A stretch of 8,951 bases of DNA. It comes from a virus (Duplodnaviria > Heunggongvirae > Uroviricota > Caudoviricetes). Every line of letters begins with the position of its first letter. Positions within the stretch are counted from its first letter, which is position 1. The stretch lies in IMG/VR virus record IMGVR_UViG_3300029107_000009, positions 1-8,951 of that record, one strand, 5' to 3'. The notes beneath the pieces were generated by a model. It was not told where the DNA came from and did no database searches. It was given only the letters and a program-made list of their open reading frames with translations. Both the position numbers and the translations under genes were made by a program. This document shows positions 2 to 8,765 of this stretch, piece by piece.

Positions 2-139
2 ATCTGGTCATTACCAGACGGAGAAATACGCCGCTATGACAGGCGTCTGAATATAATCTGTAGCGAGTGCCGGCAGAGTGAGGTTATGCAGCGTGTGCTG
101 GCGTTCTATCAGGGTAATTATCAGGAGGTGATGCTGTGA
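2..139 (+). CDS. 3' end of an upstream gene (partial, C-terminal 45 codons; hypothetical protein)
   Basis: Frame open from the window edge with no stop until TGA 137-139; the stop overlaps the GTG start of the next gene (GTGA overlap). No start codon inside the window. Confidence 0.35.
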   Translation: MWSLPDGEIRRYDRRLNIICSECRQSEVMQRVLAFYQGNYQEVML

Positions 140-609
140 GTACACCGGTAACCATTCTTGATATGTGCTGTGGCAGCCGTATGTTCTGGTTCGATAAGAA
201 TGACGACCGGGCGATATTTAGCGATATCAGAAAGGAAGAGCACACATTGTGTGATGGACGATGTCTGATTATCAGTCCTGATCTGATAGCTGATTTTCGT
301 GCACTACCATTTGCAGACGCATCTTTTTCGATGGTTATATTCGACCCTCCGCATCTTGAGCGTGTTGGTGATAACGCCTGGATGGGAAAGAAATATGGAC
401 GGCTGAATAAAGATACCTGGCGTGATGATTTGCGGCAGGGATTTAAAGAAGCCTTTCGTGTGTTGCGTCCATCCGGCGTTCTGATTTTTAAATGGAATGA
501 AACGCAAATACCTGTTCGCCAGATATTGGTACTGACCGACAGAAAACCTGTTATCGGTCAACGAACAGGAAAAAACGATAAAACCCACTGGATTATTTTT
601 ATGAAATAG
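136..609 (+). CDS. Small SAM-dependent methyltransferase (N6-adenine/N4-cytosine type, D-P-P-H motif), likely orphan phage DNA methyltransferase
   Basis: 157-aa ORF with GTG start 7 nt after AGGAGG (123-128). Translation shows a motif I-like LDMCCGSRMF near the N-terminus, an acidic IFSDIR about 20 residues later, and a motif IV-like FDPPH. No adjacent restriction endonuclease gene. Confidence 0.7.
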   Translation: MSTPVTILDMCCGSRMFWFDKNDDRAIFSDIRKEEHTLCDGRCLIISPDLIADFRALPFADASFSMVIFDPPHLERVGDNAWMGKKYGRLNKDTWRDDLRQGFKEAFRVLRPSGVLIFKWNETQIPVRQILVLTDRKPVIGQRTGKNDKTHWIIFMK

Positions 610-819
610 GCATCCAGTGAGTTGGTTCGTAAGGTTACAGATACGTATATCTGAATAATTAAATTCAGTTCTGTAAATAAAATTTAATCCTTAACCGGAG
701 GGATTTCTGCACCCTCAAATCATCAGGAGGCCGCCCGAAAGGGCGGTAGTGAAATACGAAAGTTCAAAATAATTATTGAAACAGGAATAGCTGGTGGAGA
801 TTTTGAGGATGTATTCGAA

Positions 820-936
820 GTGGACGATGACGCAACACCTGATGAAATTCATGATGAAGCAAAAGAAATTTTCTTTAACTACTGCAATTACTCATATCAC
901 GAAATAAAAGACGAGGAGGAAGAACAAAATGGCTGA
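820..936 (+). CDS. Small highly acidic protein (about 38 aa from GTG; start uncertain)
   Basis: Frame open from 688 to TGA 934-936 encoding ...DVFEVDDDATPDEIHDEAKEIFFNYCNYSYHEIKDEEEEQNG. No in-frame ATG; the only canonical in-frame start is GTG 820 with a weak GAGG 11 nt upstream. Its stop overlaps the ATG of the next ORF (AATGGCTGA). Confidence 0.3.
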   Translation: MDDDATPDEIHDEAKEIFFNYCNYSYHEIKDEEEEQNG

Positions 937-1105
937 TTTTGGTTCAACTAAATACAACGTCAGTTTTGAAGAATGGCATGAACTGTTAATGGATTATGCA
1001 GAGTTACGTGGTGGAAGTGCTGCTGATGCTGAAGCCTGGCGTGATGACTACGAAGCAGGAAAAACACCTGTCGAAGCATATTGTGATGAGTGGGGCGATG
1101 AATGA
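929..1105 (+). CDS. Small acidic protein (58 aa)
   Basis: ATG 929 preceded by GAGGAGGA (913-920). Acidic, Trp-containing product MADFGSTKYNVSFEEWHELLMDYAELRGGSAADAEAWRDDYEAGKTPVEAYCDEWGDE. Start overlaps the stop of the preceding acidic frame. Confidence 0.5.
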   Translation: MADFGSTKYNVSFEEWHELLMDYAELRGGSAADAEAWRDDYEAGKTPVEAYCDEWGDE

Positions 1106-1209
1106 GCGAGATTAATTATCAGGAAGGGCATGAAACGGTAGGGCAGGCAAAACCAGTTGCATGACGATATCGCTATGTGAAAAAGGGCGTTACGGACCTT
1201 CAGGAGAAG

Positions 1210-1617
1210 ATGTGGGTTGGTGACTGGAAATATGTACCGACAAAAGAGGATTGCAACGACAGGCCGAGCTATGAGATTCAGGCCTTATTCACTACCCCGC
1301 CAGTCCCGGTGATATCAGAAGGACTGGTTAAAGCCGCGCGCTTTTATGAACAGGTAAAGCGTGAGAATCCACCAGTCGAAACAGGAGTATGGAAAGATGC
1401 TGTTGATTGGGTTCTCAAAGAGGCCTGCTGTGCTGTCATTCTGGGTAAAGCCGACAATCCATTAGCATCCAGTAACCAAGTTGGCGAATTAACAATGTGG
1501 GTTAAACGACAGGTCAGTCAACTGAAAAAAGCTAATCCAGACTGCAAATTACCGGAGAAGGCGATGGACTACCTTAAGCGGAACGAACTGATAAGCGCGG
1601 AGGATGTTTTGCGATGA
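1210..1617 (+). CDS. Hypothetical protein (135 aa from ATG 1210; 146 aa if the GTG at 1177 is used)
   Basis: Long ORF in the supplied track (1177..1617). ATG 1210 has AGGAG 3 nt upstream; GTG 1177 has no obvious SD. Soluble-looking product with no motif I recognise. Stop TGA overlaps the ATG of the following peptide gene (ATGA). Confidence 0.6.
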   Translation: MWVGDWKYVPTKEDCNDRPSYEIQALFTTPPVPVISEGLVKAARFYEQVKRENPPVETGVWKDAVDWVLKEACCAVILGKADNPLASSNQVGELTMWVKRQVSQLKKANPDCKLPEKAMDYLKRNELISAEDVLR

Positions 1618-1988: not shown

Positions 1989-2002
1989 GCGGGTGCTTGA
2001 GG
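1989..2002 (+). promoter_or_regulatory. Upstream complementary box of the hok mRNA (fold-back inhibition element, 5' partner)
   Basis: GCGGGTGCTTGAGG (1989-2002) can pair antiparallel with CCTCAACGCACCCGC (2365-2379) just before the 3' terminator: 14 bp with a one-nucleotide bulge. Confidence 0.5.
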
Positions 2003-2037
2003 CTATCTGCCTCGGGCATGAACACCAACGGCAGATA

Positions 2038-2111
2038 GAGAAAAGCCCCAGTTAACATTACGCGTCCTGCAAGACGCTTAACATTAATCTGAGGCCCAAT
2101 CTATGCTTCAC
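2038..2111 (-). ncRNA. Candidate Sok-like antisense RNA (boundaries approximate)
   Basis: Minus-strand -35 TTGCCT (forward 2141-2146) and -10 TAACCT (forward 2118-2123) with a 17-nt spacer. The transcript would be antisense to the mok start codon (2103) and its SD. On the minus strand an outer 7-bp stem (forward 2045-2051 with 2089-2095, one G-U pair that is a C-A mismatch on the plus strand) encloses an inner hairpin (forward 2062-2077) and is followed by UUUUCUC. Confidence 0.3.
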
Positions 2112-2315
2112 AAACGTAGGTTAGCCTCTTACGTGCCGAAAGGCAAGGAGAAGCAGGCTATGAAGCAGCAAAAGGCGATGTTAATCGCCCTGATCGTCAT
2201 CTGTTTAACCGTCATAGTGACGGCACTGGTAACGAGGAAAGACCTCTGCGAGGTACGAATCCGAACCGGCCAGACGGAGGTCGCTGTCTTCACAGCTTAC
2301 GAACCTGAGGAGTAA
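2103..2315 (+). CDS. Mok-like ORF: in-frame 19-codon N-terminal extension of hok
   Basis: 70-aa ORF MLHKRRLASYVPKGKEKQA + Hok sequence, in frame with hokD as in chromosomal mok/hok annotations; GAGG lies 10 nt upstream of ATG 2103. Confidence 0.45.
   Translation: MLHKRRLASYVPKGKEKQAMKQQKAMLIALIVICLTVIVTALVTRKDLCEVRIRTGQTEVAVFTAYEPEE
2160..2315 (+). CDS. hokD: Hok-family type I toxin (HokD/RelF-like, 51 aa)
   Basis: Product MKQQKAMLIALIVICLTVIVTALVTRKDLCEVRIRTGQTEVAVFTAYEPEE matches the Hok/Gef family and my recollection of E. coli HokD (RelF). SD AAGGAG at 9 nt; N-terminal TM helix and conserved Cys. Confidence 0.9.
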   Translation: MKQQKAMLIALIVICLTVIVTALVTRKDLCEVRIRTGQTEVAVFTAYEPEE

Positions 2316-3142: not shown

Positions 3143-4192
3143 GTGAGGGTATTACTTCGACCTGTTCTGGTGCCGGAACTCGGGCTGGTGGTCCTTAAGC
3201 CAGGTCGTGAATCCATGCAGGTATTTCACAATCCCCGGGTGCTGGTGGCGCCTGAACCAAAAAGCATGCGCGCTCTGCCGTCAGGACCTGTTCCTGCTGT
3301 TAGCCAGCTGCTGGCAGAGGATAAAACATTACTGCCATTTTTCAGCGACGAACGAGTGATTCGTGCTGCTGGCGGCGCTGGTGCACTGTCTGACTGGCTG
3401 TTGCGCCATGTTAAATCCTGCCAGTGGCCACACGGCGACTATCACCACAGTGAAACCGTCATTCACCGTTATGGCGCTGGCGCGATGGTGTTGTGCTGGC
3501 ACTGCGACAACCAGCTGCGTGACCAGACATCCGAATCACTCGAGCAACTTGCTCATCAAAATCTGTCAGCATGGATGATTGACGTCATACGCCATGCAAT
3601 GAATGGCACGCAGGAGAGGGAGTTATCGCTGGCTGAATTATCCTGGTGGGCGGTCTGCAATCAAGTGGCGGACGCGCTTCCGGAGGCAGTATTACGTCGT
3701 TCTCTGGGGTTACGTGCGGAAAAAATCCGCTCAATGTACCGTGAAAGCGACATCGTACCGGGAGAGCAGACCGCCACCAGCATACTGAAGCAGCGCACAA
3801 AAAATCTTGCGCAGTTGCTTCACACCCACCAGCCACAGAACCCAGCACAGGAAAAGCAGGTGGTCAGCATTGCCGTTGATCCGGAGTCTCCGGAATCTTT
3901 CATGAGGCGACCTAAACGTCGCCGTTGGGTAAATGAGAAATATACGCGCTGGGTGAAGACACAGCCGTGTGCGTGTTGTGGTCAACCAGCCGACGATCCC
4001 CATCACCTGATTGGTCACGGTCAGGGAGGGATGGGAACAAAGGCCCACGATATTTTCACGCTACCGTTGTGCCGGGAACATCACAACGAACTTCATGCGG
4101 ATCCGCTGGCGTTCGAAGAAAAGCATGGTTCTCAGGTTGATTTAATTTTTCGTTTTCTTGATCACGCCTTTGCAACCGGCGTGCTTGGGTAA
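3143..4192 (+). CDS. ydfU: DUF968-family prophage protein (YdfU-like, 349 aa) with a C-terminal Cys/His-rich HNH-like motif
   Basis: GTG 3143 with GGAGG at 4 nt. The 349-aa length and the position upstream of Q match my recollection of Qin YdfU. The C-terminus contains CACCGQPADDPHHLIGHGQGG...LCREHHNELH. Confidence 0.75.
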   Translation: MRVLLRPVLVPELGLVVLKPGRESMQVFHNPRVLVAPEPKSMRALPSGPVPAVSQLLAEDKTLLPFFSDERVIRAAGGAGALSDWLLRHVKSCQWPHGDYHHSETVIHRYGAGAMVLCWHCDNQLRDQTSESLEQLAHQNLSAWMIDVIRHAMNGTQERELSLAELSWWAVCNQVADALPEAVLRRSLGLRAEKIRSMYRESDIVPGEQTATSILKQRTKNLAQLLHTHQPQNPAQEKQVVSIAVDPESPESFMRRPKRRRWVNEKYTRWVKTQPCACCGQPADDPHHLIGHGQGGMGTKAHDIFTLPLCREHHNELHADPLAFEEKHGSQVDLIFRFLDHAFATGVLG

Positions 4193-4204
4193 AAGAGGTT
4201 ACTG

Positions 4205-4564
4205 ATGCGTATAGAGTTTGTTTTGCCTTACCCGCCGACGGTGAATACCTACTGGCGACGTCATGGCAATACGTATTTCATCTCGGAGGCCGGAAAGCGT
4301 TATCGCCATGATGTGGCGCTAATTGTTCGCCAGCAGCGGTTGAAATTAAACCTGTCCGGAAGGCTGGCGATAAAGATTATTGCAGAGCCACCGGATAAGC
4401 GCCGTCGTGACCTGGACAATATCCTGAAAGCACCACTAGATGCGCTGACGCATGCCGGACTACTCATAGACGACGAGCAGTTTGATGAAATCAATATTGT
4501 GCGCGGTCAGCTCGTTCCTGGTGGGCGGCTGGGGATAAAAATCACAGAACTGGAGTGCGCATGA
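4205..4564 (+). CDS. rusA: RusA-type Holliday junction resolvase (119 aa)
   Basis: Product contains PDKRRRDLDN..LDALTHAG, closely resembling the RusA acidic catalytic-core motif (PDRRRRDLDN..FDALTKAG as I recall it). AAGAGG at 6 nt from ATG 4205. Confidence 0.85.
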   Translation: MRIEFVLPYPPTVNTYWRRHGNTYFISEAGKRYRHDVALIVRQQRLKLNLSGRLAIKIIAEPPDKRRRDLDNILKAPLDALTHAGLLIDDEQFDEINIVRGQLVPGGRLGIKITELECA

Positions 4565-5250
4565 ATAACCAGTATTTACAGTTTGTGCGTGAGCAGCTCA
4601 TTATCGCCACCGCTGATTTGAGTGGGGCAACAAAAGGTCAGCTTGAAGCCTGGCAGGAGAATGCCATGTTCGATACAGGGCGTTACAGGCGAAAAAAAAT
4701 CCGGTACCGCGATGAAGTGACTGGAAAAATGATAACGCGGAATAATCAACCAATCCCGGGAAAGCAATCGCTGGCGAAGGGGACGTCAATTCCTCTGGTC
4801 AGTCCGGTTGAGTTTTCGACATCATCGTGGCGGCGGGCTGTTCTGTCTCTTGAAGAACATCATAAAGCCTGGTTGTTGTGGTGTTACAGCGGGAGTATTT
4901 GTTGGGAATATCAGATCGCTATAACACAGTGGGCGTGGAATGAATTTAATACTCAATCCGGTACCAGAAAAATTGCAGGGAAAACGCAGGAACGCCTGAA
5001 AAAATTAATCTGGCTGGCGGCGCAGGCAGTAAAAGCAGAACTTTTTGGTGGGGAAGGTTATGAATACCAGGATCTGGCATTACTGGCGGGAGTGACAACT
5101 AAAAACTGGTCCAAAACATTTACTCGTCACTGGGTTGCAATGAAACACATTTTTCAACGACTGGATAGTGAGGCTTTATTGTTTGTAATGAGAACACGTT
5201 CAAAACAAAAGGCGGCATTTTCAAAGCAAAATGTTGCAAAAGTAGATTGA
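4561..5250 (+). CDS. Putative late-gene antiterminator Q-like protein (229 aa from ATG 4561)
   Basis: ATG 4561 overlaps the rusA stop (ATGA) with GGAG at 5 nt. Lies immediately upstream of a strong promoter plus terminator and the lysis genes, which is the canonical Q position. Assignment is positional; no Q family motif recognised with certainty. Confidence 0.55.
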   Translation: MNNQYLQFVREQLIIATADLSGATKGQLEAWQENAMFDTGRYRRKKIRYRDEVTGKMITRNNQPIPGKQSLAKGTSIPLVSPVEFSTSSWRRAVLSLEEHHKAWLLWCYSGSICWEYQIAITQWAWNEFNTQSGTRKIAGKTQERLKKLIWLAAQAVKAELFGGEGYEYQDLALLAGVTTKNWSKTFTRHWVAMKHIFQRLDSEALLFVMRTRSKQKAAFSKQNVAKVD

Positions 5251-5460: not shown

Positions 5461-5536
5461 GGCCCTTTAGCTCAGTGGTGAGAGCGAGCGACTCATAATC
5501 GCCAGGTCGCTGGTTCAAATCCAGCAAGGGCCACCA
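5461..5536 (+). tRNA. tRNA with CAU anticodon, ileX/ileZ-like (Ile2 type after lysidine modification, or elongator Met)
   Basis: 76 nt; acceptor GGCCCTT/AAGGGCC; D-arm GCTCAGTGGTGAGAGC; anticodon loop CTCATAA; T-loop TTCAAAT; encoded CCA. Resembles E. coli ileX from memory. Confidence 0.8.
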
Positions 5537-5537
5537 A

Positions 5538-5614
5538 CCGCCACTAGCTCATCAGGAAAGAGCGTCAACCCTTTAAGTTGAGTGTGCGAGGTTCGAGTCC
5601 CCGGTGGCGGTCCA
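5538..5614 (+). tRNA. tRNA-like gene with atypical anticodon loop CCTTTAA (anticodon UUU if canonically numbered, but C at position 33)
   Basis: 77 nt; acceptor CCGCCAC/GTGGCGG; anticodon stem TCAAC/GTTGA; T-loop TTCGAGT with one A-C mismatch in the T-stem; encoded CCA. Confidence 0.55.
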
Positions 5615-5616
5615 GT

Positions 5617-5692
<76 letters not shown>

Positions 5693-5695
5693 TAT

Positions 5696-5770
<75 letters not shown>

Positions 5771-6155: not shown

Positions 6156-6400
6156 ATTCCTTTCTCAGAACAAAAAAAGACACGAGCATCCAGGAATACT
6201 CGTGGGACAACGTCCTTTGGATAGCAATTTGCGAGAGGGTGAAAAGTAGCGCGGTCGTCGGATTAAGACCGCGGGACAAAGTCCATGAAGAATAATAAGT
6301 ATTGGCCCCCTTCCGGGGACATGTTCATACTACTAAGCTTCAGAAGTGGTTTAAATACTCAAATTAACCTTAATTTCCGATAAGTCTTATTTCATTTCTT

Positions 6401-6503
6401 TGCGCCACATCTGGCGCGCATCAAATAACGCCACGCAAAGGGCATCTGCGGATGCCGGTGCTTTTGACGGGGTGTTTTTACGGGCCGCTGGTGGCCCTTT
6501 TTT
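6401..6503 (+). promoter_or_regulatory. Structured leader upstream of the holin gene: three consecutive GC hairpins, the last followed by a T-tract
   Basis: Hairpins TGCGCCA-CATC-TGGCGCG (6401-6418), GGCATC-TGCG-GATGCC (6441-6456) and GGGCC-GCTGGT-GGCCC + TTTTTT (6482-6503), directly before the holin RBS. Confidence 0.4.
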
Positions 6504-6522
6504 ATTTACAGGAGAAAAAAGT

Positions 6523-6915
6523 ATGTCTGAACCCTTATCCGGTTCCGGCACGGCTGCGGCGCTCGGTGGGGCGACGGTGTACGGGCTGTTTACCGGAACG
6601 GATTTCGGGATTGTGTTTGGTGCGTTCGCCGGGGCGTTATTTGTGGCAACGATGCCGCAGGCGCTTTCAGCCTGGCGTGTGGCAGCACATTTTCTGGTGT
6701 CGTTCATTATCGGCGTTCTGGGCGCAGAAGTTCTGGCATCCTGGCTGGTAAAGCATACAGGGTTTGACGGTGCACCTGTCGACGCATTGTGTGCAGTACT
6801 GGTGTCAGTGGTGTCGGTGAAGATTCTCTCGTTCATCCACCAGCAGGATATAGCATCACTGGTGTCCGGTCTGTTCTCCCGCCTGCGGGGCGGAGGAGGC
6901 GGCAATGTTAAGTAA
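6523..6915 (+). CDS. Putative holin (130 aa, multi-TM membrane protein)
   Basis: ATG 6523 with AGGAG at 8 nt. Product has several Gly/Ala-rich hydrophobic segments and a charged C-terminus; first gene of a three-gene lysis cassette. Confidence 0.65.
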   Translation: MSEPLSGSGTAAALGGATVYGLFTGTDFGIVFGAFAGALFVATMPQALSAWRVAAHFLVSFIIGVLGAEVLASWLVKHTGFDGAPVDALCAVLVSVVSVKILSFIHQQDIASLVSGLFSRLRGGGGGNVK

Positions 6916-7180
6916 CCTTCCTGGATTGCTGAATGTGGCGTTATGCACGGTTATCGTGCTGACGCTCTTTTTTTATCGTCGCCGTGATTCCAGACATAAA
7001 CCGCTGGTGTCATGGCTGGCCTGGCTGCTGATGCTGCTTTATGCCTTTGCACCACTCAGCTATCTGTGTGGTCGCCCGTTAGCAACGGGCTGGCTGGAAG
7101 TGTTTTTTAACCTGCTGTTCTGCGTGCTGGTAATACGCGCACGCGGGAACGTCACAAAAATCTTTCCATTGTTGAGGTGA
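6905..7180 (+). CDS. Membrane protein of the lysis cassette (91 aa, about three TM segments)
   Basis: ATG 6905 with GGAGGAGG at 5 nt, overlapping the holin stop by 11 nt; hydrophobic product; stop overlaps the endolysin start region. Confidence 0.6.
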   Translation: MLSNLPGLLNVALCTVIVLTLFFYRRRDSRHKPLVSWLAWLLMLLYAFAPLSYLCGRPLATGWLEVFFNLLFCVLVIRARGNVTKIFPLLR

Positions 7181-7182
7181 AT

Positions 7183-7560
7183 ATGTCGGGTAAATTCAGA
7201 TTCAGCCGTCGCAGTGAAAAAAATCTGGAGGGCGTCAAACCACAGCTGGTTGCTGTCGTTCGCCGTGCGCTGGAGCTGACGGAGGTTGATTTCGGTATTA
7301 CGGAAGGCCTGCGCAGTAAGTATCGCCAGAAACAGCTGGTCGCGGAAGGGAAAAGCCAGACCATGAACAGCCGCCACCTGACCGGTGATGCTGTGGATGT
7401 TGTGGCTTATGTTGGCAGCCAGGTGTCATGGGACTGGCCTCTGTACGAGAAAATCGCGCAGGCATTTAAGCAGGCTGCCGCAGAGCTGGGGACTGCCATC
7501 GAATGGGGCGGGGACTGGAAAACACTGAAAGACGGACCTCACTTTCAGTTGAAACGATAA
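7183..7560 (+). CDS. Endolysin, peptidase M15 (VanY / L-alanyl-D-glutamate peptidase-like), 125 aa from ATG 7183 (alternative GTG 7177)
   Basis: Product carries SRHLTGDAVDV, which matches the zinc-binding SxHxxGxAxD signature of M15-type cell-wall peptidases; GAGG upstream; follows the holin-like genes. Confidence 0.75.
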   Translation: MSGKFRFSRRSEKNLEGVKPQLVAVVRRALELTEVDFGITEGLRSKYRQKQLVAEGKSQTMNSRHLTGDAVDVVAYVGSQVSWDWPLYEKIAQAFKQAAAELGTAIEWGGDWKTLKDGPHFQLKR

Positions 7561-7572
7561 GCAAAACAAAAC

Positions 7573-7600
7573 CCCCGCAGCTGGAACAGTCCGGGGTTTT
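7573..7600 (+). terminator. Probable terminator after the endolysin gene
   Basis: CCCCG...CGGGG stem with a 14-nt loop followed by TTTT; weaker than the other terminators in the window. Confidence 0.4.
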
Positions 7601-7831
7601 TAGTTTTCACGCCATGAAAAGGAACAATAAGTTGCAAAACAGCATGAGGTGAGGAAATTGTGAACAGTGAGTACGGGGAAAATCCTCGTGGGAAAGTATA
7701 AAAGATTCTTTTTGAGGTTGTCCATTATGAAAGGTATTGAAGTGGAAACTCCCGCGAGCCTTGATTTGACAAGGGCTGCGGCCTTTGCATGGCGGTCGCT
7801 GTTCTGATTTGGGCTGTGCGTTGGTGGTGAC

Positions 7832-8014
7832 ATGAGCAGAAAACACTGGACACACAGAATGCCTCGAGCGGCGGCGAAAAGGGCACTGGTAGCGATACTG
7901 GTGCCTTTTTTATTGGTGGGCTGCGTTAGCCTGGATAAGGCGCGCCAACTTTTAGATACAGCTTCTCAGGTCTGCAAAATTGTCGACAGTGTCCAGCAGT
8001 GTATGCAGAACTGA
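7832..8014 (+). CDS. Small lipoprotein (60 aa precursor; lipobox LVGC; 30-aa mature peptide with three Cys)
   Basis: ATG 7832; basic N-terminus, hydrophobic stretch LVAILVPFLLVG, then Cys: a signal peptidase II-type pattern. No overlapping Rz-like ORF. Confidence 0.5.
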   Translation: MSRKHWTHRMPRAAAKRALVAILVPFLLVGCVSLDKARQLLDTASQVCKIVDSVQQCMQN

Positions 8015-8041
8015 GCTTTGCATTTGGATGGTGCGAGTAAC

Positions 8042-8067
8042 AAAAAACGGTCAATTGACCGGTTGAT
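8042..8067 (-). terminator. Rho-independent terminator for the minus-strand gene (perfect palindrome, possibly bidirectional)
   Basis: CGGTCAATTGACCG palindrome (8048-8061) followed on the minus strand by UUUUUUG, 12 nt after the minus-strand stop codon. Confidence 0.6.
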
Positions 8068-8073
8068 TAGCGT

Positions 8074-8253
8074 TTAACGTTTGCTGTCTGGAGTTCGTTT
8101 TACAGGTACCCATGTAGCACCCGGCTTTGATGTCGGGGGAGCCGTATGGTTATCAGGAATGGTGGTGTAATTGTTTGTCGTGCCACCACGTGGGCCTTGT
8201 TGACGGTAAACGCCACCATCTTTGCCACTATTTTCACCTGGTTTTAAAGCCAT
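8074..8253 (-). CDS. Hypothetical Gly/Pro/Thr-rich hydrophilic protein (59 aa), opposite-strand moron
   Basis: ATG at 8253 on the minus strand with AGGGA SD at 7 nt; own terminator; product MALKPGENSGKDGGVYRQQGPRGGTTNNYTTIPDNHTAPPTSKPGATWVPVKRTPDSKR. The track's longer ORF to 8322 starts at TTG with no SD. Confidence 0.5.
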   Translation of the reverse strand: MALKPGENSGKDGGVYRQQGPRGGTTNNYTTIPDNHTAPPTSKPGATWVPVKRTPDSKR

Positions 8254-8414
8254 GCTAGTCCCTTTTATTAAAGTCACGATTGTGTGACAAGGTGAGTATT
8301 GGTCGTATAAGTGAAAAGACAAGATGAAATTTTTTCATGAGCCATCTGTTAGTTCATCTTAAGCACATTCTGGAAATGTGAGCTGATATTTACGGGAGTT
8401 AGAGGAAATTAACA

Positions 8415-8765
8415 ATGCCCCTGCGAACCCCAAAAGTCTGCCGTGTTCGCGGTTGCCGCCATACCACGACTGACCCGTCAGGCTACTGCGAAAGCCACAA
8501 AAGCGAAGGCTGGAAGCAATACAAACCTGGACAATCCCGTCATCAGCGCGGCTACGGTTCGAAGTGGGACAGTATCCGCGTGCGCATATTGAAGCGTGAC
8601 AAAGGCCTGTGTCAGTTATGTCTGCGTGCTGGTGTGGTGCGTGAGGCGAAAACCGTTGACCACATCATCCCTAAAGCGCATGGCGGCACTGATGCCGACA
8701 GTAATCTGCAGAGTCTGTGCTGGCCGTGTCATAAGGCGAAGACGGCCCGTGAATGGCTGAAGTAA
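8415..8765 (+). CDS. HNH endonuclease (116 aa), packaging-associated type
   Basis: Product has CxxC...HK...DHIIPKAHGGTDADSNLQSLCWPCHKAK, a classic HNH motif. GAGGAA SD. Sits immediately upstream of the terminase small subunit, as in HK97-like phages. Confidence 0.85.
   Translation: MPLRTPKVCRVRGCRHTTTDPSGYCESHKSEGWKQYKPGQSRHQRGYGSKWDSIRVRILKRDKGLCQLCLRAGVVREAKTVDHIIPKAHGGTDADSNLQSLCWPCHKAKTAREWLK

What the first reader, a model, noticed from the sequence alone, without database searches (positions are those of the whole stretch)
136..1105. Small orphan methyltransferase followed by very acidic mini-proteins: candidate anti-restriction module
The 157-aa methyltransferase has no partner endonuclease. 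It is followed by two strongly acidic small ORFs (D/E-rich and Trp-rich), a composition reminiscent of DNA-mimic anti-restriction proteins. A self-protective methylase combined with acidic inhibitors would be a coherent anti-defence cassette at the early-late boundary of the prophage. This is inference from composition and context only.
Basis: inference. Interest (0 to 1): 0.5.

Follow-up and report, generated by a model that had tools for sequence, protein, structure and literature searches.

The report
Orphan methyltransferase beside two acidic mini-genes
This stretch of an E. coli lambda-like prophage holds a small stand-alone methyltransferase and two very acidic mini-genes, all real and already catalogued, but they move independently of each other, so there is no evidence for a joint anti-restriction cassette.

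Summary
The window is 100% identical to a public assembly contig whose close relatives are all E. coli. It covers the right operon of a Qin/Rac-like lambdoid prophage. ORF 136-609 is an intact 157-aa class I SAM methyltransferase with an invariant DPPH motif and no target-recognition domain. No endonuclease partner is found here or in 80 other species. The family is very large and already catalogued as a putative type II or orphan DNA methyltransferase. Its substrate is not shown.

The first acidic ORF was mis-delimited. It is the 60-aa DUF7167 gene, 754-936, and its ATG is ATA in this copy. The second, 929-1105, is an intact 58-aa protein with net charge -12 and a predicted three-helix fold. 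Both are under purifying selection and are the most acidic small proteins in related prophage regions.

The three genes are not a unit. Outside Escherichia and Shigella the methyltransferase never has the acidic pair beside it. The pair occurs without the methyltransferase. The 58-aa gene occurs alone in virulent phages and in about 550 plasmids. Nothing links the acidic proteins to known DNA mimics.

Verdict: ordinary accessory genes that happen to be adjacent. The anti-restriction idea is plausible only for the methyltransferase and remains untested for the acidic proteins.

The parts
2..139 (+). 3' end of the DUF977 (LygF-like) gene, cut by the window start. Its TGA stop (137-139) overlaps the methyltransferase start.
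   Evidence: Pfam PF06163, E 1.8e-12. Relatives annotate a 140-aa DUF977 gene overlapping the methyltransferase gene by 4 nt.
136..609 (+). Orphan class I SAM-dependent methyltransferase, 157 aa. It has a GTG start and a GGAGG Shine-Dalgarno sequence at 124-128. Motif I is LDMCCGS (residues 8-14). D30-x-R32 and D53 are conserved, and motif IV is DPPH (residues 70-73). There is no target-recognition domain.
610..753 (+). Intergenic spacer. It holds GGAGG at 726-730, then a 6-bp GAAA-tetraloop hairpin (ccgccc-gaaa-gggcgg, 731-746), then 7 nt before the DUF7167 start. The GGAGG-hairpin-start arrangement travels with DUF7167 in every context examined.
   Evidence: Sequence. RNA fold z-score -2.4. 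Homology to phage Rac begins near 651 and to ArgO145 near 723. Homology to L087 ends at 746, at the hairpin.
754..936 (+). DUF7167 gene, 60 aa, net charge -14. Its start codon is ATA here and ATG in most relatives. Its acidic tail coding sequence (GAGGAGGA, 913-920) also serves as the Shine-Dalgarno sequence of the next gene.
   Evidence: Pfam PF23768, 53.6 bits against a cut-off of 24.4 for the 60-aa reading and 25.0 bits for the 38-aa reading. phrog_1997, E 2.1e-30. ATG in L002, L086, L085 and L096; ATA in the window, L084 and L097-L099. pN/pS 0.05-0.28.
929..1105 (+). orf58: an intact 58-aa acidic protein (net charge -12, 3 Trp). It overlaps the DUF7167 stop by 8 nt and the next gene's start by ATGA. 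Predicted three-helix fold. Member of phrog_519, function unknown.
   Evidence: phrog_519, E 4.5e-23. 70 clusters of homologues. 198 phage records and 554 plasmid records. F13, W16, W37, Y41, G44 and A50 are invariant at 48-52% identity. AlphaFold2 pLDDT 81 with helices 13-27, 34-43 and 47-54. pN/pS 0.00-0.18.
1102..1617 (+). Downstream coupled gene (171 aa in relatives, phrog_660, function unknown). Here it is interrupted by TGA at 1162-1164 (TGG in relatives). A 146-aa remnant ORF restarts at GTG 1177.
   Evidence: An intact 171-aa gene is called in L086, L088 and L089.

Best explanation
These are three independent accessory ('moron'-type) genes that lie next to each other in the delayed-early right operon of a Qin/Rac-like lambdoid prophage. 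The order is replication genes, DUF1627, DUF977, the methyltransferase, DUF7167, orf58, orf171, hok/sok and, further on, DUF968, RusA and Q.

(1) The 157-aa protein is a minimal, stand-alone class I SAM methyltransferase of the amino-methylating type. It has an N-terminal SAM loop and an invariant DPPH at the end of strand 4. It is translationally coupled to DUF977. Its most likely role is to methylate exocyclic amino groups (adenine N6 or cytosine N4) in replicating phage DNA, so that progeny DNA escapes restriction in the next host. That role is inferred, not shown. With no target-recognition domain, its specificity must be very short or relaxed.

(2) DUF7167 and orf58 form a tightly overlapping pair of very acidic mini-proteins of unknown function. 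In this copy DUF7167 starts at ATA, so it is probably made poorly or not at all. orf58 keeps its own strong Shine-Dalgarno sequence and ATG.

(3) The adjacency of the methyltransferase and the pair reflects lambdoid mosaicism, in one common E. coli prophage arrangement. It does not reflect a functional cassette.
For: Gene order and family identities.

Methyltransferase:
- D9, D30, R32 and D70-P-P-H73 are invariant across 40 homologues down to 40% identity.
- The family is catalogued as a DNA methyltransferase by PHROGs and by PADLOC restriction-modification models.
- Weak, repeated similarity of the stretch after motif IV to beta-class DNA amino-methyltransferases: 2zig E 0.99, PF01555 E 0.003 for homologue P0204, and the phage SpSL1 N6-adenine methylase E 0.007.
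- It sits in the replication or early module of temperate phages of many phyla.
- No nuclease partner.

Independence of the parts:
- 1 of 80 species loci has the pair beside the methyltransferase.
- E. coli genome counts are 855, 1749 and 489.
- Alternative contexts.
- orf58 occurs alone in Ackermannviridae, in Autographiviridae, and in IncI2, IncT and IncU plasmids. DUF7167 is in only 18 phage records.

The small genes are real: pN/pS 0.00-0.28, Pfam and PHROG families, and an in-frame 6-nt deletion in relatives.

The ATA and TGA alleles are real: the same bases are present in three assemblies.
Against: - No experiment shows the methyltransferase's substrate.
- The closest structural neighbours are generic or RNA methyltransferases, such as PH0226, Trm11 and Bud23. 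The only Pfam hits are the generic Methyltransf_11 and Methyltransf_25.
- The lack of a recognition domain is unusual for a sequence-specific DNA enzyme. So is 45-65% identity across bacterial phyla, with 38% to a haloarchaeal virus.
- Within E. coli, 57% of genomes with the methyltransferase do have the pair directly downstream. A lineage-specific functional link therefore cannot be excluded.
- NCBI-type annotation still calls the 60-aa DUF7167 gene with its ATA start, so it may be translated at a low level.
Confidence: 0.6

Rival explanations
1. The methyltransferase and the two acidic proteins form one anti-restriction cassette: self-methylation of phage DNA, plus DNA-mimic inhibitors of type I, BREX or similar systems.
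For: - The genes lie on the same strand in the same operon.
- The junction is present in 489 complete E. coli genomes.
- The two small proteins are extreme acidic outliers.
- orf58 is spread across temperate and virulent phages and conjugative plasmids, a distribution typical of anti-defence genes.
Against: - The linkage is absent in 79 of 80 other species that carry the methyltransferase.
- The pair and orf58 alone occur widely without it.
- There is no sequence or fold similarity to Ocr, ArdA or any other solved protein.
- The invariant residues of orf58 are aromatic or core residues, not carboxylates.
- The DUF7167 start codon is lost in this copy.
- In IncI2 plasmids orf58 follows a CaiF/GrlA-type regulator, close to repA and upstream of the transfer genes. 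No known anti-restriction gene is among the genes annotated within 9 kb.
Confidence: 0.1
2. The methyltransferase does not act on DNA. It methylates a substrate that is conserved across bacteria, such as an rRNA or tRNA base, a protein glutamine, or a nucleotide-like small molecule. It would then reprogramme the host or blunt a defence signal rather than mark DNA.
For: - It is a minimal 150-aa core with no recognition domain.
- It is unusually conserved across phyla and into an archaeal virus.
- Profile search of the PDB finds only PH0226, Trm11 and RsmD-like HI0767, and only weakly.
- D/NPPY-type motifs also occur in RNA m2G or m6A enzymes and in HemK-type glutamine methyltransferases (established knowledge).
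Against: - PHROGs and REBASE-derived PADLOC models file it with DNA methyltransferases.
- The stretch after motif IV resembles beta-class DNA amino-methyltransferases.
- Its position in phage replication modules matches that of other phage DNA methyltransferases.
- One homologue carries a sub-threshold N-terminal HTH.
Confidence: 0.2
3. The acidic pair has nothing to do with defence. These would be small regulatory or adaptor proteins that bind a basic host or element protein involved in replication, transcription or transfer control.
For: - In IncI2 plasmids orf58 lies in an operon headed by a CaiF/GrlA-family transcription regulator, just upstream of SPFH/NfeD and type IV secretion genes.
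- In Det7 it lies just downstream of the major capsid gene on the same strand.
- In lambdoid phages it lies in the nin-like or ea22 accessory regions, which hold many regulators.
Against: There is no direct evidence. No domain or fold match indicates a partner. The neighbours in IncT and IncU plasmids are uninformative.
Confidence: 0.3

Closest known systems
Phage orphan DNA amino-methyltransferases (for example T4/T1 Dam, and the REBASE 'orphan' and type II methyltransferase classes as modelled in PADLOC PDLC03288 and PDLC03730)
   Same: It stands alone with no nuclease. It is encoded in the early or replication module of phages. It has a class I fold with a (D/N/S)PP(Y/F/H/W)-type motif IV, here DPPH. 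It gives full-length, high-scoring matches to the PADLOC models and to phrog_954.
   Different: It is only about 150 aa and has no target-recognition domain. Motif I precedes motif IV, unlike beta-class PF01555 enzymes. It gives no above-threshold Pfam match to a DNA methylase family. Its specificity and even its substrate class are untested.
RNA m2G/m6A amino-methyltransferases with D/NPPY motifs (Trm11, RsmD, RsmC, TrmN6)
   Same: They are among the nearest structural neighbours. They share the motif order (I then IV) and the same catalytic-loop chemistry.
   Different: Sequence identity is only 13-20%. The RNA enzymes carry extra RNA-binding domains (THUMP and others) or partners (Trm112). 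None is known from temperate-phage early operons (my own knowledge).
DNA-mimic anti-restriction proteins (T7 Ocr, ArdA, T7 gp5.9)
   Same: They are small, very acidic proteins encoded by mobile elements. orf58 is likewise found in both phages and conjugative plasmids.
   Different: There is no sequence or fold similarity. The orf58 model is a compact three-helix bundle, not an elongated B-DNA-like array. The conserved positions are aromatic. No functional data exist.
Pfam DUF7167 (PF23768), and PHROG families 1997 and 519
   Same: The 754-936 product matches DUF7167 and phrog_1997 end to end. The 929-1105 product matches phrog_519.
   Different: These families have no assigned function. This DUF7167 copy has an ATA start codon. 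The orf58 match covers only positions 76-137 of the 143-position phrog_519 profile.

Membership tests
Class I SAM-dependent amino-methyltransferase (N6-adenine / N4-cytosine type) | Rossmann-like class I methyltransferase fold | tested here: met
Class I SAM-dependent amino-methyltransferase (N6-adenine / N4-cytosine type) | SAM-binding motif I (glycine-rich loop after strand 1), plus an acidic residue after strand 2 | tested here: met
   LDMCCGS at residues 8-14. D9 is invariant; C12 and G13 are at least 90% conserved. D30 and R32 are invariant in 40 homologues.
Class I SAM-dependent amino-methyltransferase (N6-adenine / N4-cytosine type) | Catalytic motif IV, (D/N/S)PP(Y/F/W/H), at the end of strand 4 | tested here: met
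   D70-P71-P72-H73 is invariant in 40 homologues down to 40% identity.
Class I SAM-dependent amino-methyltransferase (N6-adenine / N4-cytosine type) | Target-recognition domain for a DNA sequence | tested here: not met
   The whole protein is the 150-aa catalytic core. Extensions in homologues are variable and unrelated to each other.
Class I SAM-dependent amino-methyltransferase (N6-adenine / N4-cytosine type) | Demonstrated methylation of DNA | not testable with these tools
   No paper on this family was found. The SpSL1 enzyme for which no m6A was detected (PMC6755750) is not a member.
Type II restriction-modification system | A cognate restriction endonuclease encoded next to the methyltransferase | tested here: not met
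   The neighbours are DUF977 and DUF7167. In 83 loci the recurrent neighbours are replication proteins, integrases and an unnamed 221-aa family upstream; no nuclease partner recurs.
DNA-mimic anti-restriction proteins (Ocr / ArdA type) | High density of surface carboxylates | tested here: met
   Net charge is -14 over 60 aa and -12 over 58 aa. These are the most acidic of the 48 small genes in related regions.
DNA-mimic anti-restriction proteins (Ocr / ArdA type) | Homology to a known mimic family | tested here: not met
   No Ocr, ArdA or other named family in Pfam, NCBIfam or PADLOC, and PHROGs gives only families of unknown function. No PDB sequence hit.
DNA-mimic anti-restriction proteins (Ocr / ArdA type) | An elongated fold presenting carboxylates with B-DNA geometry | tested here: inconclusive
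   The orf58 model is a compact three-helix bundle at pLDDT 81 with no PDB match. Its oligomeric state is unknown.
DNA-mimic anti-restriction proteins (Ocr / ArdA type) | Inhibition of type I restriction or BREX in vivo | not testable with these tools
   Needs plaque or transformation assays.
Pfam DUF7167 (PF23768) | Score above the Pfam gathering threshold over the full profile | tested here: met
   The 60-aa reading from 754 scores 53.6 bits against 24.4, covering profile positions 1-60. The 38-aa reading from 820 scores 25.0 bits and covers only profile positions 30-60.

The most novel reading that the evidence does not exclude
The 58-aa protein (929-1105, phrog_519) may represent an uncharacterised family of acidic three-helix proteins that is shared across mobile-element types. 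It is found in temperate lambdoid phages, virulent Ackermannviridae and Autographiviridae, and about 550 mostly conjugative plasmids, chiefly IncI2 plus IncT and IncU. It could be a new inhibitor of a host defence or DNA-handling protein, possibly working as a charge or DNA mimic. It would act independently of the neighbouring methyltransferase.
Probability: 0.2. Interest if true: 0.55.

Novelty: already known. Interest (0 to 1): 0.2.

Why it matters
Little changes if the main reading is right. These are common, already annotated prophage accessory genes. The exact methyltransferase sequence is on at least 193 contigs and the exact orf58 sequence on at least 1000.

Two points are useful. First, gene callers and readers should take 754, not 820, as the DUF7167 start, and should note the ATA allele and the downstream nonsense codon.

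Second, two very widespread families remain without an experimental function, and both are cheap to test. One is a methyltransferase with no recognition domain, conserved from Enterobacteria to Gram-positives and a haloarchaeal virus. The other is a small acidic protein shared by phages and conjugative plasmids. A positive result for either would add a new, broadly distributed counter-defence or host-takeover factor.

Tried and rejected
- **Literature.** Searches for DUF7167, LygF, 'DPPH motif', orphan methyltransferase with prophage, phage-encoded methyltransferase with anti-defence, and acidic DNA-mimic with lambdoid found nothing on these families. PMC12373910 had nothing relevant.
- **Other phage methyltransferases.** S. 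aureus PamA was read about but not compared by sequence, so nothing links it to this family. Phage SpSL1 cds16, for which no adenine methylation was found (PMC6755750), is a beta-class enzyme and not this family.
- **Is DUF1187, the upstream partner of orf58 in IncI2 plasmids, related to DUF7167?** No detectable similarity.
- **Known anti-restriction genes next to orf58 in IncT and IncU plasmids.** The neighbours have no informative Pfam domains.
- **Domain fusions in longer methyltransferase homologues as a clue to substrate.** Only sub-threshold HTH_23 and N6_N4_Mtase signals, plus DUF6291.
- **Are the ATA start and the TGA stop sequencing errors?** Rejected, because three assemblies share them.
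- **Is the hairpin at 731-746 an intrinsic terminator?** Rejected. No T-run follows it, and the terminator scan did not list it.

Full report
**Where the window comes from**

The 8951-base window is 100% identical over 8950 bases to contig JAKNHB010000029.1 of NCBI assembly GCA_022135225.1. Two further assemblies carry near-identical copies. The species name of that record was not shown. The exact methyltransferase and orf58 proteins are annotated on hundreds of E. coli contigs.

The window is the right-hand early-to-late part of a Qin/Rac-like lambdoid prophage. In order it holds:
- the end of a DUF977 (LygF-like) gene;
- the methyltransferase;
- three small coupled genes;
- a hok/mok/sok module;
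- two small genes, then DUF968, RusA and antiterminator Q;
- four tRNA genes;
- two holins and an M15 endolysin;
- an HNH endonuclease; in the source contig the terminase genes follow it.

This order rests. Relatives show the replication genes and DUF1627 directly upstream.

**The methyltransferase (136-609)**

The ORF is real and intact.
- Its GTG lies 7 nt after GGAGG and overlaps the DUF977 stop codon (GTGA).
- RefSeq annotates the same 474-nt gene in a close relative.
- Homologues align from this N-terminus, which carries the SAM loop LDMCCGS.

The family is very large. It has 7438 clusters at 90% identity and 2060 clusters at 50% identity with E<=0.001.

PHROGs names the family 'DNA methyltransferase' (phrog_954, E 1.5e-85). 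PADLOC's restriction-modification models match end to end: MTase_II at 6.5e-73 and orphan MTase at 4.9e-50. NCBI calls it a 'class I SAM-dependent methyltransferase'.

The stretch after DPPH resembles beta-class DNA amino-methyltransferases, weakly but repeatedly.

The family occurs in 254 phage records. They include temperate phages of Streptococcus, Listeria, Enterococcus, Staphylococcus, Lactobacillus, Gordonia, Corynebacterium, Vibrio, Acinetobacter, Porphyromonas, Bacteroides, Fusobacterium and Akkermansia, and a Halorubrum virus. Identity to the window protein is 38-93%.

No endonuclease partner exists. In 83 loci the recurrent neighbours are replication proteins, integrases and an unnamed 221-aa family upstream. 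'Orphan' is therefore confirmed. 'DNA methyltransferase' is the consensus label but is an inference. There is no recognition domain, and I found no experimental paper on the family.

**The acidic genes**

Relatives encode a 60-aa DUF7167 protein from an ATG at the position equal to window 754.
- The window has ATA there. So do two sister assemblies and phage Rac MN652886.
- The 60-aa reading matches Pfam DUF7167 over the full profile, at 53.6 bits. The 38-aa reading covers only the C-terminal half.
- One annotation pipeline still calls the ATA-start gene.
- From general knowledge, AUA is a very weak initiator in E. coli.

*orf58.* The second gene (929-1105) is intact. It has its own GAGGAGGA Shine-Dalgarno sequence, which lies inside the acidic tail coding region of DUF7167. 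It overlaps that gene by 8 nt.

*orf171.* The third gene starts at an ATGA overlap (1102). It carries a TGG to TGA change at codon 21 that is absent from relatives outside this prophage lineage.

Both small genes evolve under purifying selection, with pN/pS 0.00-0.28. They are the only small genes of four related prophage regions with net charge per residue at or below -0.15. The composition observation therefore holds.

**Is it a cassette?**

No.
- Among 80 loci from different species that carry the methyltransferase, only Shigella has DUF7167 and orf58 within 6 kb.
- In 5426 complete E. coli genomes the methyltransferase is in 855 and the pair in 1749. The methyltransferase-to-pair junction is in 489. 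The arrangement is a common E. coli prophage variant but is not obligate in either direction.
- Phage Rac has DUF977 followed directly by the pair.
- Stx phages such as ArgO145 carry the pair among ea22-like genes in the left operon.
- L087 has an identical methyltransferase followed by unrelated reverse-strand genes. Homology breaks at the 731-746 hairpin.
- DUF7167 and orf58 are separable as well. DUF7167 is in 18 phage records and orf58 in 198. The latter include virulent Ackermannviridae (Det7 gp16) and Autographiviridae (phiKDA1 ORF26).
- orf58 is also in 554 plasmids, of which 516 are conjugative and most are IncI2. There it overlaps a DUF1187 gene by the same 8 nt, downstream of a CaiF/GrlA-type regulator. 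DUF1187 shows no detectable similarity to DUF7167.

**DNA mimicry**

Nothing supports it beyond charge.
- Neither protein matches Ocr, ArdA or any other named family in Pfam, NCBIfam or PADLOC, and neither matches any PDB sequence.
- orf58 is predicted to be a compact three-helix protein, with pLDDT 81. It has no fold match in the PDB. Foldseek is weak for such small helical proteins.
- At 48-52% identity the invariant positions are F13, W16, W37, Y41, G44 and A50. These are core and turn residues, not carboxylates.
- The presence of orf58 across different kinds of mobile element is the one feature that fits an anti-defence or host-takeover role. That is a lead, not evidence.

**Conclusion**

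The cassette interpretation is not supported.

The methyltransferase is most likely an orphan DNA amino-methyltransferase that marks phage DNA. This is inferred, and about one chance in five remains that the substrate is not DNA. The acidic proteins are real, conserved and of unknown function.

All three belong to catalogued families, and the exact methyltransferase and orf58 protein sequences are already in public databases. The finding is ordinary, apart from the open functional questions listed under next steps.

Noticed in passing
window 754-756 and 1162-1164: Two G-to-A changes relative to most E. coli relatives. The DUF7167 start is ATA instead of ATG. Codon 21 of the downstream 171-aa gene is TGA instead of TGG. 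Both are present in three independent assemblies, so this accessory block is decaying in this prophage lineage. Phage Rac MN652886 also has ATA, but it has gained an in-frame ATG 51 nt upstream and a stop at codon 44.
   Followed up: yes
window 726-756: GGAGG is followed at once by a 6-bp GAAA-tetraloop hairpin (731-746), and then by 7 nt before the DUF7167 start. The linear spacing of 23 nt would shrink to about 7 nt if the hairpin forms. That is a split Shine-Dalgarno arrangement like the one reported for T4 gene 38 (from memory). The element travels with DUF7167 in every context examined, and it marks a mosaic breakpoint in L087.
   Followed up: partly
window 1991-2315: A complete hok/mok/sok type I toxin-antitoxin module. 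The Rfam sok match scores 113 bits at 1991-2165. The 70-aa ORF at 2103-2315 matches Pfam HOK_GEF in its C-terminal part, and a terminator-like hairpin lies at 2384-2401.
   Followed up: partly
window 5461-5770: Four tightly packed tRNA genes, Met(cat), Lys(ttt), Thr(tgt) and Gly(tcc). They lie just downstream of the antiterminator Q gene and upstream of the lysis genes.
   Followed up: partly
window 3143-5250: A DUF968 protein with an HNH-like C-terminus (349 aa), a RusA resolvase and a Q antiterminator form the end of the nin-like region. The RusA and Q genes overlap.
   Followed up: partly
window 6400-8765: A lysis and packaging block. It holds a Phage_holin_8 protein, a 3TM holin, an M15 peptidase endolysin, a small ORF at 7832-8014 with a lipoprotein-like signal (a possible spanin), and an HNH endonuclease just upstream of the terminase genes seen in the source contig. 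A 172-aa antisense ORF (6387-6905) mirrors the holin gene and is probably spurious.
   Followed up: partly
L093 8793-9177 (IncI2 plasmid pMFDS1339.1) and 554 plasmid records: orf58 homologues at 88% identity sit in IncI2 conjugative plasmids. There they overlap a DUF1187 gene by 8 nt, downstream of a CaiF/GrlA-family regulator and upstream of SPFH/NfeD and type IV secretion genes. More distant homologues lie in blocks of small hypothetical genes in IncT and IncU plasmids.
   Followed up: partly
loci L051-L083; phage hits H129-H173: The minimal methyltransferase is conserved at 45-65% identity across phages or prophages of Proteobacteria, Firmicutes, Actinobacteria, Bacteroidetes, Fusobacteria and Verrucomicrobia. 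Identity to a haloarchaeal tailed virus is 38%. That is unusually high for a phage accessory protein with no recognition domain. Some homologues carry an extra 88-aa C-terminal extension, or N-terminal extensions of about 60 aa.
   Followed up: partly
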